DNA of 5,660 nt, taken from Candidatus Vampirococcus lugosii. Lineage in GTDB: Bacteria > Patescibacteriota > Gracilibacteria > Absconditabacterales > Absconditicoccaceae. The notes below the pieces were generated by a model. That model saw only the letters and a list, made by a program, of their open reading frames with translations. It had not been told where the DNA came from and searched no databases. The DNA lies in assembly GCF_018420025.1 (NCBI RefSeq), contig NZ_JAEDAM010000060.1:1-5660 (forward strand), in the 5' to 3' direction. The translations under genes and the position numbers were made by a program. Shown here piece after piece: positions 1-5,660 of this stretch; within the stretch, counting starts at the first letter, position 1; every line of letters begins with the position of its first letter.

Positions 1-281
1 TATATATAACTTTTTTATAATAAAGAAATTAATACTTTTTTCAAGATTTCATACAAGTAAAGACAGCTTCAAGATTATCATTAAAAACTAAAGCAGTTTC
101 TAAAACATAAGCATTATTTATCTCTTTACCTGTATTTAAATTTATAAAAAAGTAATATTTTATTATATTTTTCTGTTTATACAATTTTTTTATATTTTTT
201 TTTATTTGATTTTTTTAATTAAAAAATTATTATATTTGAACATAAAAAATAAATATTTTATATCATTAATTATCTATAAAA

Positions 282-971
282 ATGAATAAAAAAATATTTG
301 TATTATTTTCTTTGTTTGCTATACTGATTATTAGTTCTATATTAATCTGATTTTTTAATTATTTTAATATTATTAAAATTAATAAAGACTTAACCAAGTC
401 TTTGGATGAAATAAATTCTAAATTATCTTATAATTCAGAACAAAATTTTTCATCTGATGATGACAATATTGAAAATGATGATATTGAAAATGAAAATGAT
501 AATTATAATTATTATGAAAATAATAAAGATTTTGGATTAAATCAAGATGATTTATTTGATTCGTTTTTGGAAGAAAGAGATAGAATGTTTGATGAAAAAA
601 ATGAAATGTTTGATGATTTTTTTCAAAATTTGGATAATTCAAGATCTTTTGGTATGAATATTAATCCTAAATGATCAAATAATATGAGTTTTTCCAATAC
701 TTATATAAGAAATGGTGAAGTTTTTAAATATTCTATAAAAATTAATGATGATAAACTTTATTGATCACTTACTACAAAAAATGAAGATGAACTTACAAGA
801 TATTATGAATTATTAAATAAATTAGATTTGAATATAACTAAAGAATCTAATAAAATAGAATTTGATTGAAATTCTAAATATATGGATGAAGTATTAAAAA
901 TTTTTGGTAAAAATTTTGATTTTGAAATAGAGTCTAAAGATAAAAATAATTTGAATCCTAGAGAGTTTTAG
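282..971 (+). CDS. Hypothetical membrane-anchored or secreted protein with an acidic D/E/N-rich low-complexity linker (229 aa; four in-frame TGA read as sense)
   Basis: ATG at 282 is the first start after an in-frame TAA (267..269). The frame stays open to TAG at 969..971 if the TGAs at 348, 672, 762 and 867 are read through. It contains the track ORF 402..674 in the same frame. The N-terminus MNKKIFVLFSLFAILIISSILI(G)FFNYF is a hydrophobic signal or anchor with no lipobox Cys. It is followed by SSDDDNIENDDIENENDNYNYYENNKD and MFDEKNEMFDDFF, then a roughly 100-aa non-repetitive C-terminal domain. I recognise no family. Confidence 0.7.
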
Positions 972-1003
972 TTTTATATAAAAAATAATTTTAACTAAAA
1001 ATT

Positions 1004-1714
1004 ATGAAGGATTTAATTATAAATAATGAAAAAATTCCTATAAATATAATAAAAAGCCCAAAAAGAAAAAGTACTTTATCTTTTCGTATGACTTGTGATT
1101 GATTAATTATTAGAAGTCCAGTTGATAAAGTAGATAAATTAATAAATGAATTTTTATATAAAAGACAGGATTGGATTTATAAAAATTGGTTAGTTCAAAA
1201 GAATAATAAAACTGTTATCAAAAAATATGTTAGTTGAGAAACTTTTTTGTATAAAGGTAAAAAGTATATACTCAAAGTTATTCAATGAAATTATAAATGA
1301 TGTAAAATTGAATTTAATAATTCATTTTTTTTTGCATATATAGACGAAAATATTTCTGATAAAATTAAATGAAATTATATAAAACTTGAATTAGACAAGT
1401 GGTACAAAAATAAATCTAAAGAAATAATAAAAAAAGAAGCAGAAAAAATTATTAAATTATACAATTTTGATGTAAATAAAATAATTATTAAATCTTATAA
1501 GTCTAAATATGGGCAATGTAAGGCTAATGATATTTATTTTAATTATCTGATAATTAAATTTCCTTTATGAATTATAAAACATATTATTTTACATGAATTA
1601 TGTCATATTGAGCACAAAAATCATAGTAAAAATTTTTGGAATTTGTTATCAGTGTTGGACAAAAATTGTAAAGAAAACAGAAAATGGATCAAAGAAAATT
1701 GAAATTTAGATTAA
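1004..1714 (+). CDS. YgjP/DUF45-like (COG1451, M48-related) HExxH zinc metallopeptidase, 236 aa; seven in-frame TGA read as Gly
   Basis: ATG at 1004 is the first start after an in-frame TAA (992..994). The stop is TAA at 1712..1714. The motif HELCHIEHKNHSKNFW (HExxH at 1592..1606) matches the family signature HELxHxxxxNHSxxFW. Other family-like blocks are STLSFRMTCD(TGA)LIIRSP, YVS(TGA)ETFLYKGKKYILKV, KSKYGQC (family position R-W-G-S-C) and the C-terminal RKWIKEN(TGA)NL. The gene starts 32 nt after 282..971, so the two are probably co-transcribed. The family assignment is from memory of its motifs, not from a search. Confidence 0.85.
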
Positions 1715-1725
1715 AACTTCTGTAT

Positions 1726-2715
1726 TTACACCTCACCATATAAATAAAAACCTATTCCATCATCCAATAATAATTCCAATATTATATTAGATAATTTTGA
1801 TACTCTTTTACTATGTCATGGACTATAAGTTAGATCAAAAACATCTATTAATTTAATCATCAATTCAATTCAATTAGCAAAATTCATATTTCAAGTAGTA
1901 TTAATAGTATTTATTATTTTTTGAAAACTAAAAAATTCAACTCATCATGGATTTAATCTTCATATATTATTTGTCAAATATTTTGTTATTTCAATATTTG
2001 ATTTAGGAGTTTTATTAAAATTAATTAATCTATTAAAAAAACAATCCTTATTATTTTTATCTATAACATTTTTATATAAATATATAAGATTTTTTGATTC
2101 AATAGTATTTGTCTTTTTTATAACTTCCATACTTTTTTTATCAAAAATTTTTTGATAAGAATTTAAGTCAATTTCATAAGTTTCAAAATTCATTCAAGAT
2201 AAATTTACTAATTCATTATATAATTGTTTAACATAAAAAGATAATGATATTATCATAGATAAAAATAAAATAGAAGTTTTTGGGATTCATATATTTTCTT
2301 TATCCAAAATAATTCATAAAATACCATCCGTATTTTTATTTGACAAAACAGAATATAATTCATCAGAAACATGTATTTTCAAAATATTACTACATAAACT
2401 TTTTAAATAATTAAATAAATCTGCTGGAGTCTCTCACATAAATATATCTTCCAATAAAGAATCTATTTCAGTTTTTAAAGAATTTATATTTTTTTCCAAC
2501 TCACCTAAAGCCAATAAATCCAAATTTGTTGATATACAATATAAATTGTATTGTATTTTTGATGCTATATCAACCAATAAATAATAATATTTATTTCTAT
2601 TTATAACTTCTTTATTATATTCTACATTTTTATTATATTCAAATATTTGTTTATCTTTTTCAGATATAGAATTATTTTCATTTGTATGATTATCTTCTTT
2701 AACCTCAATTTCCAA
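1726..2715 (-). CDS. Hypothetical protein (core gene B, about 329 aa from TTG 2715); start uncertain, no recognised family
   Basis: One minus-strand frame is open from 2895 down to TAA at 1726..1728 once the in-frame TGAs are read through (10 downstream of 2715). It joins the track ORFs 2434..2715 and 1960..2193, which are in the same frame. In DNA this A+T-rich, TAA/TAG should occur by chance every dozen or so codons, so a run of more than 330 codons is strong coding evidence. Candidate starts are TTG 2715 (7 nt after the upstream gene's stop) and ATG 2811 (an 89-nt overlap). Alternatively there is no independent start if this is fused to gene A by a frameshift. The last 12 codons (DGIGFYLYGEV*) lie inside IR-L. 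Confidence 0.7.
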
Positions 2716-3897
2716 TGCATTATTAAATATTTCATTTCAAAAATCATTTTCTCATATAAGATAATATAATGTTCCAAAAAAAATTATATACAAGTAAATC
2801 AGTATTTTCATCACAACAAATATTTCAAGATATATACATATCAAAATATTTATCCAAAACTTTTTTATTATATTTATTAATATGATTTGAAGAACCTAAT
2901 TTAAAGATTAATAATAATCTAAAAATTTGAATAAAAAATTCTGATGAATTTAATTTATCTTTATTTTTTATTAAATTAAAATCAATATTTTCATCCAGAT
3001 TTCAATCTGATGATTTTATCATTTTTATTCATGATAATATTTTATTTCTATATTTTTCAAAAAGAGACATAGTAAAATTAAATCATCTACTAAAATTAGT
3101 ATCTGTTTTGGAAAGTATTTTACTAAATCTTCTAAAAATATCTAATTCAGAAGCAGATAAAAAATAATGTAAATATAAATTAGTATCATAATCAAGTAAT
3201 TCAGATAATGTTGATTTAGCATCTTTTAAATTATTTTCAATACTACTTAATGAATTTGTCAATATAGGTCATTTAAATTTACAAATTTCATTTCATAAAA
3301 AAGCATTATCTTTTACAGAATTTAAATATGAATTATATTTATCAATTTGTATATTATAAACTTGTTCAATATTATCAAATATATTTTTCATATAAGAAAA
3401 AAATGTTTCATTATCTGTAAATCATTCTTTCTCATAAAAATATTTAAAAAATGTGTGTCTTTTGTTTGAAGGAATTATATTTAATATATTCTTTATTTTA
3501 GTATCAATTAAGATAAAAGAATTATTATCCAATGATTCCAAATTGTAATAATCTATTGCATTATTTAATTCTATAACTTGAACTCTTGCTTTATTAAAAT
3601 CAAATCATAATTCATTATTTAGTTCTATATTTCAATCATTTTCATAAATTCTATCACTTAATTCTATATTATTCATACAATATATTTAACTATTTTAAAT
3701 AAATTATTATTTATCTATTGTATAATAATATTATTCATATTTTCAAGTTTATTTTTACTTGTAATGTTAATTTATATAATATTTTAATTTTTTTATTAAA
3801 AAATATGGAAAATTTTGGAGTTTGCTCTAAATAGCTGTTTATGCTGAATTTTCAAATATTATTTCAATAAGAAATTCAAAATTTGAAGAAAATGCTA
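1764..3897. other. Unique core segment (2,134 bp) between the inverted arms
   Basis: This is the only part of the window without a mirror partner. It holds gene A, most of gene B and a 221-bp non-coding stretch (3677..3897) upstream of gene A. Confidence 0.9.
2723..3676 (-). CDS. Hypothetical protein (core gene A, 317 aa; 11 in-frame TGA read as Gly); no recognised family
   Basis: ATG at 3676..3674 is the first start after an in-frame TAA (3686..3688). The frame is open to TAA-TAA at 2725..2720. It is absent from the ORF track only because TGAs cut it into short pieces. My hand translation begins MNNIELSDRIYEND(G)NIELNNEL(G)FDFNKARVQVIELNNAIDYYN and includes ...NLYLHYFLSASELDIFRRFSKILSK...EFFIQIFRLLLIFKLGSSNHINKY... 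It looks helical and N/K/D/E/I/F-rich, and I see no catalytic motif I can name. Confidence 0.75.
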
Positions 3898-3935
3898 ATG
3901 ATGGAATAGGTTTTTATTTATATGGTGAGGTGTAA
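3898..3935 (+). pseudogene. Orphan duplicate of the 3' end of core gene B (12 codons plus TAA) at the inner edge of IR-R
   Basis: The + strand reads (a)at gat gga ata ggt ttt tat tta tat ggt gag gtg taa, which is identical to the gene B tail in IR-L. The frame is open upstream only to a TAA at 3828..3830 and contains no ATG, GTG or TTG start. Confidence 0.5.
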
Positions 3936-3946
3936 ATACAGAAGTT

Positions 3947-4657
3947 TTAATCTAAATTTCAATTTTCTTTGATCCATTTTCTGTTTTCTTTACAATTTTT
4001 GTCCAACACTGATAACAAATTCCAAAAATTTTTACTATGATTTTTGTGCTCAATATGACATAATTCATGTAAAATAATATGTTTTATAATTCATAAAGGA
4101 AATTTAATTATCAGATAATTAAAATAAATATCATTAGCCTTACATTGCCCATATTTAGACTTATAAGATTTAATAATTATTTTATTTACATCAAAATTGT
4201 ATAATTTAATAATTTTTTCTGCTTCTTTTTTTATTATTTCTTTAGATTTATTTTTGTACCACTTGTCTAATTCAAGTTTTATATAATTTCATTTAATTTT
4301 ATCAGAAATATTTTCGTCTATATATGCAAAAAAAAATGAATTATTAAATTCAATTTTACATCATTTATAATTTCATTGAATAACTTTGAGTATATACTTT
4401 TTACCTTTATACAAAAAAGTTTCTCAACTAACATATTTTTTGATAACAGTTTTATTATTCTTTTGAACTAACCAATTTTTATAAATCCAATCCTGTCTTT
4501 TATATAAAAATTCATTTATTAATTTATCTACTTTATCAACTGGACTTCTAATAATTAATCAATCACAAGTCATACGAAAAGATAAAGTACTTTTTCTTTT
4601 TGGGCTTTTTATTATATTTATAGGAATTTTTTCATTATTTATAATTAAATCCTTCAT
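3947..4657 (-). CDS. YgjP/DUF45-like HExxH zinc metallopeptidase; identical second copy in IR-R
   Basis: Exact mirror (5661-x) of 1004..1714, so the same motifs apply. Confidence 0.85.
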
Positions 4658-4689
4658 AATTTTTAGTTAAAATTATTTTTTATATAAAA

Positions 4690-5379
4690 CTAAAACTCTC
4701 TAGGATTCAAATTATTTTTATCTTTAGACTCTATTTCAAAATCAAAATTTTTACCAAAAATTTTTAATACTTCATCCATATATTTAGAATTTCAATCAAA
4801 TTCTATTTTATTAGATTCTTTAGTTATATTCAAATCTAATTTATTTAATAATTCATAATATCTTGTAAGTTCATCTTCATTTTTTGTAGTAAGTGATCAA
4901 TAAAGTTTATCATCATTAATTTTTATAGAATATTTAAAAACTTCACCATTTCTTATATAAGTATTGGAAAAACTCATATTATTTGATCATTTAGGATTAA
5001 TATTCATACCAAAAGATCTTGAATTATCCAAATTTTGAAAAAAATCATCAAACATTTCATTTTTTTCATCAAACATTCTATCTCTTTCTTCCAAAAACGA
5101 ATCAAATAAATCATCTTGATTTAATCCAAAATCTTTATTATTTTCATAATAATTATAATTATCATTTTCATTTTCAATATCATCATTTTCAATATTGTCA
5201 TCATCAGATGAAAAATTTTGTTCTGAATTATAAGATAATTTAGAATTTATTTCATCCAAAGACTTGGTTAAGTCTTTATTAATTTTAATAATATTAAAAT
5301 AATTAAAAAATCAGATTAATATAGAACTAATAATCAGTATAGCAAACAAAGAAAATAATACAAATATTTTTTTATTCAT
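4690..5379 (-). CDS. Hypothetical membrane-anchored acidic low-complexity protein; identical second copy in IR-R
   Basis: Exact mirror of 282..971. It contains the track ORF 4987..5259(-), which is identical to 402..674(+). Confidence 0.7.
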
Positions 5380-5660
5380 TTTTATAGATAATTAATGATA
5401 TAAAATATTTATTTTTTATGTTCAAATATAATAATTTTTTAATTAAAAAAATCAAATAAAAAAAAATATAAAAAAATTGTATAAACAGAAAAATATAATA
5501 AAATATTACTTTTTTATAAATTTAAATACAGGTAAAGAGATAAATAATGCTTATGTTTTAGAAACTGCTTTAGTTTTTAATGATAATCTTGAAGCTGTCT
5601 TTACTTGTATGAAATCTTGAAAAAAGTATTAATTTCTTTATTATAAAAAAGTTATATATA

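What the first reader, a model, noticed from the sequence alone, without database searches (positions are those of the whole stretch)
1004..1714. TGA is a sense codon and behaves as glycine (table 25), not Trp (table 4) or stop
About 32 in-frame TGAs must be read through to obtain the four long ORFs. Three lines of evidence point to glycine.

- **Glycine positions.** In the peptidase, TGAs sit at positions that I recall as conserved glycines of the YgjP/DUF45 family: TCD[TGA]LIIRSP (family D-G-x-h-x-h-x-x-P), YVS[TGA]ETFLYKGKKYILKV (family Y-V-S-G-E...Y-x-G-x-x-Y-x-L) and WIKEN[TGA]NL (family W-L-x-E-N-G).
- **Trp positions.** The family's conserved Trp positions (HSxxFW and K/R-W-L) are encoded by TGG, and this gene has 5 TGG codons.
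- **Composition.** By my count gene A (2723..3676) has 11 TGA, one GGN and one TGG. TGA=Trp would give about 4% Trp and 0.3% Gly. TGA=Gly gives ordinary values.

TGA would then be the dominant Gly codon, as expected under strong A+T pressure. This places the sequence in Gracilibacteria or Absconditabacteria (SR1), or on an element that replicates in them.
Basis: partly seen in the sequence, partly recalled or inferred. Interest (0 to 1): 0.7.

Follow-up and report, generated by a model that had tools for sequence, protein, structure and literature searches.

The report
UGA read as glycine (code 25)

Summary
With TGA as a stop the longest ORF is 107 codons. With only TAA/TAG as stops there are four unique ORFs of 233-389 codons, carrying 32-34 in-frame TGAs and no internal TAA/TAG.

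The interpretation (TGA = Gly, not Trp or stop) is supported:
- **ORF2 against Pfam PF01863:** Gly scores best of 20 residues (138.5 bits) and Trp worst (121.3).
- **Close relatives:** TGA swaps with GGN in 15 cells and never with TGG. It also sits on the near-invariant Gly of the WGSC motif.
- **Neighbouring UvrD-type helicase, from an independent assembly of the same organism:** Gly beats the next residue tested by 15 bits and Trp by 39.
- **Composition:** TGA = Gly gives 4.1% Gly and 0.5% Trp. TGA = Trp gives 1.1% and 3.5%.

ORF2 alone rejects Trp but separates Gly only weakly from Asp, Thr, Glu and Ser.

All four products, translated with Gly at TGA, are exact NCBI proteins of Ca. Vampirococcus lugosii on a 5660-bp contig. 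The genome paper states UGA = Gly and the use of table 25. So this is already known.

The tRNA-Gly(UCA) gene and the loss of RF2 could not be checked in the parent genome.

Aside: the contig carries a perfect 1763-nt terminal inverted repeat, probably a fold-back chimera from whole-genome amplification.

The parts
1004..1714 (+). ORF2, a YgjP-like / M48-type zinc metallopeptidase of 236 aa with an HELCH motif. It has 7 in-frame TGA (1100, 1235, 1286, 1298, 1370, 1568, 1700), 5 TGG and 2 GGN, and ends in TAA.
   Evidence: PF01863 scores 138.5 bits with TGA = G, against a cut-off of 26. The product is identical to NCBI MBS8122245.1 / WP_213349644.1 of Ca. V. lugosii.
282..971 (+). ORF1, a hypothetical protein of 229 aa with a hydrophobic N-terminus and an acidic, Asn/Asp-rich body. 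It has 4 in-frame TGA (348, 672, 762, 867) and 4 GGN, and ends in TAG.
   Evidence: It is an exact NCBI V. lugosii protein with Gly at TGA. No family hits were found.
2723..3676 (-). It has 11 in-frame TGA, 1 GGT and 1 TGG, and ends in TAA.
   Evidence: It is an exact NCBI V. lugosii protein. Its only relative is a 71%-identical V. lugosii paralogue, P0174.
1726..2811 (-). ORF3, a hypothetical protein. The RefSeq model is 361 aa with 12 in-frame TGA. The GenBank model is 329 aa, starts near 2715 and has 10 TGA. The last 12 codons and the stop (1726-1763) lie inside the inverted-repeat arm, so the annotated C-terminus may be an artefact.
1..1763 (.). Left arm of a perfect terminal inverted repeat, containing ORF1 and ORF2.
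   Evidence: It is 1763 nt long and 100% complementary to 3898-5660.
3898..5660 (.). Right arm of the inverted repeat. It holds second copies of ORF2 (3947-4657, minus strand) and ORF1 (4690-5379, minus strand), which add 11 duplicated TGAs.
   Evidence: Both copies are annotated in GenBank, with two MBS accessions each for ORF1 and ORF2. The junction 3897/3898 is spanned by the independent contig L059.

Best explanation
The window is a contig of the Absconditabacteria (SR1) bacterium Candidatus Vampirococcus lugosii, which uses genetic code 25. TGA is an ordinary sense codon for glycine, and only TAA and TAG terminate.

In this extremely A+T-rich DNA (17.6% G+C), TGA is the main Gly codon: 34 TGA against 13 GGN in the four unique ORFs. 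TGG remains the Trp codon.

By analogy with other members of the clade, decoding is by a dedicated tRNA with anticodon UCA that carries the glycine acceptor identity (G1:C72, C2:G71, G3:C70, U73). Release factor 2, which would otherwise stop at UGA, is absent.

Shown here: TGA is a sense codon, it corresponds to Gly and not Trp, and the organism is identified. Inferred from the literature and from sister genomes: the tRNA and RF2 part of the mechanism.
For: **1. TGA is a sense codon.**
- Four ORFs of 233-389 codons appear only if TGA is read through. Simulated maxima had median 88 and maximum 208.
- There are 32-34 in-frame TGAs and no internal TAA/TAG.

**2. ORF2 against the curated Pfam model PF01863, with all seven TGAs set to each residue.**
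- G 138.5 bits (best); D and T 136.1; E and P 136.0; Q 135.9.
- X 132.2; W 121.3 (worst).

**3. Column counts in 149 family representatives.**
- TGA columns hold 131 Gly and 9 Trp. The family composition is 3.5% Gly and 2.1% Trp.
- TGG columns include W149/149 and W142/149.

**4. Codon-level alignment of six relatives.**
- Residues sharing a column with TGA are GGN in 15 cells (16-fold enriched) and TGG in 0.
- Three relatives have TGA at the Gly of WGSC, which is Gly in 146 of 149 representatives.
- Over the 17 columns with a TGA, log-odds are G +9.6, next best D -5.5, W -55.

**5. Same organism, different gene.** Contig L059 is 99.4% identical to the window over 2171 bp and carries a UvrD-type helicase.
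- TGA sits in motif I, LA[TGA]AGSGKT, and in motif III, I[TGA]DDFQSIY[TGA].R[TGA]A.
- PF00580 + PF13361 summed bits: G 378.1, S 362.9, N 357.6, A 356.1, X 347.7, W 339.1.

**6. Composition.**
- TGA = Gly gives 4.11% Gly and 0.52% Trp overall. For ORF2 it gives 3.8% and 2.1%, matching the family medians of 3.3% and 2.1%.
- TGA = Trp puts ORF2 at 5.1% Trp and 0.85% Gly, outside the family range (maximum W 4.1%, minimum G 1.3%).

**7. Identity and prior knowledge.**
- The products are exact NCBI V. lugosii proteins with G at every TGA, on a 5660-bp contig. The taxon is in Absconditibacteriota.
- The genome paper states UGA -> Gly and table 25 (PMC8080830).
- Codetta inferred UGA = G in 6 of 6 Absconditabacteria species (PMC8629427).

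**8. Mechanism in the sister clade.** A pattern for a tRNA with anticodon UCA and the Gly acceptor identity found such genes about 15 nt from tRNA-Gly(GCC) in 14 of 16 Gracilibacteria/Peribacteria-labelled hits.
Against: - ORF2 alone is only weakly diagnostic for Gly against other small or polar residues. The Pfam margin is 2.4 bits.
- In raw-count log-odds for its 7 columns, D (5.5) scores above G (3.0). An entropy-weighted HMM I built ranked Q, K and E above G.
- Four of the seven TGA columns are variable surface-type positions where Gly is rare in the family.
- One relative (L007) has a TGA at a column that is Asn in the ten standard-code homologues of the first search and is Asn-dominated (emission 0.55) in the profile of 149 representatives.
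- The tRNA scan returned no hit from V. lugosii or any genome labelled Absconditabacteria. So tRNA-Gly(UCA) and absence of RF2 in the parent genome rest on published statements, not on a test made here.
- No protein-level (mass-spectrometry) evidence is available for this organism.
Confidence: 0.97

Rival explanations
1. Code 4: TGA encodes tryptophan, as in Mycoplasmatales, Entomoplasmatales and some insect endosymbionts.
For: The very low G+C content (17.6%) is typical of TGA = Trp lineages. Automated gene callers did translate this gene and its relatives with W (Logan proteins P0002, P0003, P0005 and P0167).
Against: - Trp is the worst of 20 residues for ORF2, at 121.3 bits against 138.5 for Gly.
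- In the neighbouring helicase Trp scores 39 bits below Gly.
- TGA columns contain 9 Trp against 131 Gly in 149 family representatives.
- TGA never shares a column with TGG in seven related genes, while conserved Trp columns are always TGG.
- The reading would give 3.5% Trp and 1.1% Gly overall.
Confidence: 0.01
2. Standard code: TGA is a stop, and the long frames are pseudogenes, chance open frames or sequencing artefacts.
For: Under table 11 the window shows only short ORFs of at most 107 codons. The contig also comes from amplified DNA and shows signs of chimerism.
Against: - The TAA/TAG-free frames of 233-389 codons far exceed simulated expectation.
- ORF2 matches PF01863 end to end (profile positions 3-206 of 207) across all seven TGAs.
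- Relatives keep the same frame through their own TGAs, which sit at different positions.
- None of the four ORFs ends in TGA.
Confidence: 0.005
3. TGA is a sense codon for another residue (for example Ser, Asp or Sec/Cys), or is decoded ambiguously.
For: On ORF2 alone D, T, E, P, Q, N and S score within 3 bits of G. Raw-count log-odds put D above G. In one relative a TGA lies in a Ser-conserved column and in another in an Asn-conserved column.
Against: - In the helicase, Gly leads Ser by 15 bits, Asp by 23.5 and Cys by 35.
- Across the 17 TGA columns of the seven genes, G is +9.6 and every other residue is negative.
- GGN is the 16-fold enriched within-clade partner of TGA.
- Rfam finds no SECIS or other recoding element in the window.
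- 32-34 Sec codons in 4 kb would be without precedent (my own knowledge).
Confidence: 0.015

Closest known systems
[quoted passage not shown] 2013 PNAS, Rinke et al. 2013 Nature), as applied to Ca. Vampirococcus lugosii by Moreira et al. 2021 (PMC8080830)
   Same: UGA is a Gly sense codon, TAA and TAG are the only stops, and UGG stays Trp. The genome is A+T-rich and the organism is in Absconditabacteria. The deposited annotation of this very contig already uses G at every TGA.
   Different: Nothing substantive. This window is more A+T-rich (17.6% G+C) than the 0.21-0.53 range quoted for the clade in PMC8629427. TGA makes up 72% of its Gly codons.
NCBI translation table 4 (Mycoplasma/Spiroplasma and endosymbiont code, UGA = Trp)
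   Same: UGA is read through, G+C is low, and RF2 is dispensable.
   Different: Here UGA aligns with Gly and alternates with GGN, not with Trp or TGG. The table-4 translations of these genes in automated collections (P0002, P0003, P0005, P0167) are mistranslations.
Extended Absconditabacteria code of Shulgina & Eddy 2021 (PMC8629427): UGA = Gly plus CGA/CGG = Trp
   Same: Same phylum. In the neighbouring helicase of the same organism a CGA sits where I recall the conserved Trp of UvrD motif III (IY-G-W-R-G-A), and reading both CGA codons of the gene as W adds 7.2 bits. Relative L010 has CGA and CGG at two Trp columns, W52/149 and W142/149.
   Different: The four ORFs of the window contain no CGA or CGG codon, so this second reassignment cannot be seen or tested inside the window.
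YgjP-like / DUF45 metallopeptidases (Pfam PF01863; NCBI 'M48 family metallopeptidase' / 'SprT family zinc-dependent metalloprotease')
   Same: ORF2 matches the whole domain and has the HExxH motif (HELCH).
   Different: In the relatives L001-L007 (P0004, P0005, P0007) the gene overlaps the 3' end of hsdR in a type I restriction-modification operon. In the window it follows an unrelated small ORF instead.

Membership tests
Genetic code 25 (UGA = Gly) | UGA occurs in frame inside genuine protein-coding genes, and TAA/TAG remain the only stops. | tested here: met
   There are 32-34 in-frame TGAs in four ORFs and no internal TAA/TAG. All four ORFs end in TAA or TAG. ORF lengths far exceed simulated expectation. 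PF01863 is matched across all TGAs.
Genetic code 25 (UGA = Gly) | UGA positions correspond to Gly in homologues from standard-code organisms. | tested here: met
   - ORF2: G is best of 20 residues but by only 2.4 bits.
- Seven related genes: G +9.6 and all other residues negative.
- TGA sits at the 146/149 Gly of WGSC in relatives.
- Same-organism helicase: G leads the next residue tested by 15 bits.
Genetic code 25 (UGA = Gly) | A tRNA with anticodon UCA and Gly acceptor identity (G1:C72, C2:G71, G3:C70, U73) is present in the genome. | not testable with these tools
   The window has no tRNA. A pattern scan of species-representative genomes found such tRNAs about 15 nt from tRNA-Gly(GCC) in 14 of 16 Gracilibacteria/Peribacteria-labelled hits. 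It found none from V. lugosii or any genome labelled Absconditabacteria. The rest of the parent genome could not be fetched.
Genetic code 25 (UGA = Gly) | Release factor 2 (prfB) is absent. | not tested
   This needs the whole assembly. It is not mentioned in the genome paper ('release factor' has 0 occurrences). PMC8629427 uses the criterion for Gracilibacteria, where the two species lacking an inferred UGA meaning do have RF2.
Genetic code 25 (UGA = Gly) | The organism belongs to Absconditabacteria or Gracilibacteria. | tested here: met
   The products are exact NCBI proteins of Ca. Vampirococcus lugosii on a contig of the window's length. The taxonomy is phylum Candidatus Absconditibacteriota.
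Genetic code 4 (UGA = Trp) | UGA aligns with conserved Trp and alternates with UGG among relatives. | tested here: not met
   W is the worst of 20 residues. There are 0 TGG partners of TGA. Conserved Trp columns are all TGG, or CGA/CGG in L010.
Selenocysteine recoding of UGA | UGA aligns with Cys/Sec, and a SECIS element follows the codon. | tested here: not met
   Cys scores low, at 129.2 bits for ORF2 and 342.8 for the helicase. There is no Rfam match in the window.
YgjP-like metallopeptidase (PF01863), for ORF2 | A full-length domain match above the gathering score, and an HExxH zinc-binding motif. | tested here: met
   The score is 132-138 bits against a cut-off of 26, covering profile positions 3-206 of 207. 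H197-E-L-C-H201 is invariant in the alignment.

The most novel reading that the evidence does not exclude
Table 25, as used for the deposited annotation, may be incomplete for V. lugosii. Besides UGA = Gly, the organism may read CGA (and perhaps CGG) as Trp, as Shulgina & Eddy proposed for Absconditabacteria. Deposited proteins would then carry Arg where the cell inserts Trp.

The only evidence here lies outside the window:
- A CGA sits where I recall the conserved Trp of UvrD motif III in the adjacent helicase of the same organism. Reading both CGA codons of that gene as W adds 7.2 bits.
- CGA and CGG sit at two Trp columns of the YgjP-like gene of relative L010.

The window's own ORFs contain no CGA or CGG codon.
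Probability: 0.55. Interest if true: 0.3.

Novelty: already known. Interest (0 to 1): 0.1.

Why it matters
**For biology: little.** UGA = Gly in SR1/Absconditabacteria has been known since 2013. It is stated in the paper describing this genome and is built into the deposited annotation.

**The practical value is quality control.**
- Large automated protein collections hold table-4 (Trp) mistranslations of this gene and its relatives (P0002, P0003, P0005, P0167). These place Trp at the near-invariant Gly of the WGSC motif.
- The case shows that a single short gene can reject Trp firmly but cannot by itself prove Gly.
- The contig itself is probably a fold-back amplification chimera. One annotated C-terminus and two duplicate gene records may therefore be artefacts.

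Tried and rejected
- **Custom HMM.** I built it from 149 family representatives with HMMER's default entropy weighting (effective N 2.5). It flattened the columns and ranked Q, K and E above G for ORF2's seven TGA positions. I replaced it with raw column counts. The weak result for ORF2 alone stays in the report.
- **tRNA scan.** I scanned genome contigs with a pattern for a tRNA(UCA) carrying the Gly acceptor identity. Of 47 hits, about 16 are real tRNA(UCA) genes in genomes labelled Gracilibacteria or Peribacteria and the rest look random. None came from V. lugosii or a genome labelled Absconditabacteria, so the parent-genome tRNA test failed. The pattern was probably too strict for their D/T arms, or the genome is not a species representative.
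- **Contig look-ups.** The look-up of encoding contigs for the NCBI proteins P0001 and P0174 returned nothing on record. I therefore could not read the 22.7-kb V. lugosii contig that carries the ORF4 paralogue.
- **Campbell et al. 2013 (PMC3619370)** is not held in the library.
- **Family searches for ORF1, ORF3 and ORF4.** Pfam, PHROGs, PADLOC and viral contigs gave no hits. Nothing suggests a phage or a known defence system.
- **Rfam and ARAGORN on the window** found nothing.
- **Sec recoding, pseudogenes and code 4** were considered and rejected, as set out under the rival explanations.

Full report
**What is in the window.**

The 5660-bp window is 17.6% G+C. Under the standard bacterial code its longest ORF is 107 codons. 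If only TAA and TAG are stops, four unique long ORFs appear:
- ORF1, 282-971, plus strand.
- ORF2, 1004-1714, plus strand.
- ORF3, 1726-2811, minus strand.
- ORF4, 2723-3676, minus strand.

The longest TAA/TAG-free runs are 389, 320, 239 and 233 codons. In 1000 first-order Markov simulations of the same sequence the longest run had median 88, 95th percentile 123 and maximum 208.

The ORFs contain 4, 7, 12 and 11 in-frame TGAs, 34 in total. The count is 32 with the shorter GenBank model of ORF3. None has an internal TAA or TAG, and all end in TAA or TAG.

That includes 5 TGG in ORF2, and 11 TGA, 1 GGN and 1 TGG in gene A.

**Which amino acid: ORF2 alone.**

ORF2 is a full-length YgjP-like metallopeptidase (PF01863) with an HELCH motif. 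I set all seven TGAs to each of the 20 residues in turn and scored against the curated Pfam model:

| Residue at TGA | PF01863 bits |
|---|---|
| G | 138.5 (best) |
| D, T | 136.1 |
| E, P | 136.0 |
| Q | 135.9 |
| X | 132.2 |
| W | 121.3 (worst) |

Trp is therefore rejected by about 17 bits. Gly leads other small or polar residues by only about 2.4 bits.

I then collected 149 family representatives using a profile built only from standard-code homologues. Raw column counts show the following.

| ORF2 position | Codon | Family residues |
|---|---|---|
| aa78 | TGA | G51, the commonest residue |
| aa33 | TGA | K36, then G28 |
| aa233 | TGA | S38, then G30 |
| aa95, 99, 123, 189 | TGA | variable polar; G 13, 8, 1, 0 |
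| aa57 | TGG | W149/149 |
| aa212 | TGG | W142/149 |
| aa133 | TGG | W52, the commonest residue |
| aa228 | TGG | W28, second commonest |
| aa170 | GGN | G146/149 |
| aa85 | GGN | G62, the commonest residue |

Trp appears 0-5 times in each TGA column. These are the three columns where Gly is frequent, and Gly is the commonest residue in only one of them.

Log-odds over the seven columns give D 5.5, G 3.0, E 2.9, S 2.6 and W -20.5. On ORF2 alone the honest statement is "not Trp, compatible with Gly".

**Which amino acid: relatives at the DNA level.**

Six related genes at 47-61% identity were recovered with their DNA from metagenome assemblies. Most had been machine-translated with Trp at TGA.

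Codon-level alignment shows that TGA alternates with GGA, GGT, GGC and GGG in the same columns, including three informative ones:
- the YVS-G-E column;
- the Y-K-G-K column (G62/149);
- the WGSC Gly (G146/149), which is TGA in three relatives and GGG in the window.

Residues sharing a column with TGA are GGN in 15 cells, a 16-fold enrichment. They are TGG in none. Over the 17 columns that hold a TGA in any of the seven genes, Gly scores +9.6 and every other residue is negative (D -5.5, W -55).

**Which amino acid: another gene of the same organism.**

Exact look-up showed that table-4 translations of ORF1 and ORF2 also exist on independent Logan assemblies of runs SRR13241708 and SRR13241709. 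Contig L059 is 99.4% identical to the window over 2171 bp. Upstream of ORF1 it carries a UvrD/PcrA-type helicase fragment with 23 TGA, 5 GGN and 7 TGG.

TGAs occupy positions that I recall as conserved glycines of UvrD-type helicases:
- motif I, LA[TGA]AGSGKT;
- motif III, I[TGA]DDFQSIY[TGA]-CGA-AGA-[TGA]A.

Summed PF00580 + PF13361 scores are below. F, I, L, M and V were not run.

| Residue at TGA | Summed bits |
|---|---|
| G | 378.1 |
| S | 362.9 |
| N | 357.6 |
| A | 356.1 |
| E | 355.7 |
| Q | 355.0 |
| D | 354.6 |
| T | 353.4 |
| K | 353.2 |
| H | 351.7 |
| R | 349.7 |
| P | 348.6 |
| X | 347.7 |
| C | 342.8 |
| W | 339.1 |
| Y | 333.1 |

This singles out Gly.

**Composition.**

Across the four ORFs, TGA = Gly gives 4.11% Gly and 0.52% Trp. 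TGA = Trp gives 1.14% Gly and 3.50% Trp.

For ORF2, the Gly reading (3.8% G, 2.1% W) matches the family medians of 3.3% and 2.1%. The Trp reading (0.85% G, 5.1% W) falls outside the family range.

**Identity and prior knowledge.**

The Gly translations of all four ORFs are exact NCBI proteins of Candidatus Vampirococcus lugosii, each on a contig of 5660 bp. The species is in phylum Absconditibacteriota.

Moreira et al. 2021 state that UGA is reassigned to Gly in this genome, as in other Absconditabacteria, and that genes were called with Prodigal table 25 (PMC8080830). Shulgina & Eddy 2021 inferred UGA = G in 6 of 6 Absconditabacteria species (PMC8629427). The finding is therefore correct but already known and already annotated.

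**Mechanism.**

The accepted mechanism has two parts. A tRNA-Gly with anticodon UCA bears the Gly acceptor identity, and RF2 has been lost. This comes from Campbell et al. 2013 as cited, and from the criteria in PMC8629427.

I could not test it in the parent genome. The window has no tRNA. My single genome-collection scan used a pattern encoding G1-C2-G3, C70-G71-C72, U73 and a UUCAA anticodon loop. It returned tRNA(UCA) genes about 15 nt from tRNA-Gly(GCC) in 14 of 16 Gracilibacteria/Peribacteria-labelled hits. It returned nothing from V. lugosii or from any genome labelled Absconditabacteria. This step is inferred, not shown.

**Things seen on the way.**

- **(a) Inverted repeat.** The contig has a perfect 1763-nt terminal inverted repeat, 1-1763 against 3898-5660.
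  - It duplicates ORF1 and ORF2, and both copies are annotated.
  - L059 runs straight through the right inner junction (3898/3897) into ORF4. The native order is therefore helicase (divergent), then ORF1, ORF2, a spacer, ORF4 and ORF3, all on one strand.
  - No independent contig supports the left junction at 1763/1764. L060 ends exactly there.
  - The DNA was MDA/MALBAC-amplified and assembled with SPAdes. A fold-back amplification chimera is the likeliest explanation.
  - The last 12 codons of ORF3 (DGIGFYLYGEV*) would then be read-through into the inverted copy.
- **(b) Outer ends.** Window positions 1-191, and their mirror, are not found in L059 or L060. Those two contigs agree with each other upstream of position 192.
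- **(c) CGA/CGG.** A CGA sits where I recall the conserved Trp of UvrD motif III in the helicase. CGA and CGG sit at two Trp columns in relative L010. Both fit the published CGA/CGG -> Trp reassignment. The window's ORFs have no such codon.
- **(d) ORF4 paralogue.** ORF4 has a 71%-identical paralogue elsewhere in V. lugosii, and the last 57 or so residues are identical.
- **(e) Gene context.** In the relatives on L001-L007 the YgjP-like gene overlaps the end of hsdR in type I R-M operons.

**Verdict.**

- The novelty class is "already known".
- Interest is low.

Noticed in passing
window 1-1763 and 3898-5660: A perfect (100%) 1763-nt terminal inverted repeat duplicates ORF1 and ORF2, and both copies are annotated in GenBank. 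The independent contig L059 spans the right inner junction (3897/3898). Nothing supports the left one (1763/1764), and L060 ends exactly there. Because the DNA was MDA/MALBAC-amplified, this is most likely a fold-back chimera rather than a real palindrome.
   Followed up: partly
window 1726-1763 (ORF3 C-terminus, minus strand): The last 12 codons and the stop of ORF3 (DGIGFYLYGEV*) lie inside the inverted-repeat arm. They are the reverse complement of the sequence just downstream of ORF2. If the left junction is chimeric, the annotated C-terminus is an artefact and ORF3 is truncated on this contig.
   Followed up: partly
window 1-191 and 5470-5660: The outermost 191 nt of each arm are absent from two independent assemblies of the same locus (L059, L060). 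Those two agree with each other upstream of window position 192, and the break falls at a T-run. This is a second possible chimeric join or a structural variant.
   Followed up: partly
L059 3-1385 (minus strand), codon 283: In the UvrD-type helicase next to ORF1 in the same organism, motif III reads TAT TGA CGA AGA TGA GCC. A CGA sits where I recall the conserved Trp (Y-G-W-R-G-A). Reading both CGA codons of the gene as W adds 7.2 bits to PF00580. This fits the published CGA/CGG -> Trp reassignment in Absconditabacteria. The window's own ORFs have no CGA or CGG.
   Followed up: partly
L010 3638-4360: The YgjP-like gene of this relative has CGA and CGG at two Trp columns (W52/149 and W142/149) where all six other genes have TGG. 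It also has CGA/CGG at three non-Trp columns.
   Followed up: partly
window 2723-2895 (C-terminal part of ORF4): ORF4 has a single relative, a V. lugosii paralogue on a 22,680-bp contig (P0174, 71% identity). The last 57 or so residues are 100% identical, unlike the rest. This suggests gene conversion, a recent partial duplication or another assembly join.
   Followed up: no
L001 6021-9756, L004 6982-10717, L007 6982-10702: In the relatives on L001-L007 (P0004, P0005, P0007) the YgjP-like peptidase gene overlaps the 3' end of hsdR by 11 nt, within type I restriction-modification operons (hsdM, hsdS, hsdR). In the window the peptidase gene is not next to any R-M gene.
   Followed up: no
proteins P0002, P0003, P0005, P0167, P0169, P0170: Automated (Logan) translations of this gene family use Trp at TGA (table 4). 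This places W at the near-invariant Gly of the WGSC motif. These are mistranslations sitting in a large public protein collection.
   Followed up: yes
window 2715-2811: The GenBank and RefSeq models of ORF3 differ: 329 aa against 361 aa. The longer one overlaps ORF4 by 89 nt and adds two in-frame TGAs. The true start is unresolved.
   Followed up: no
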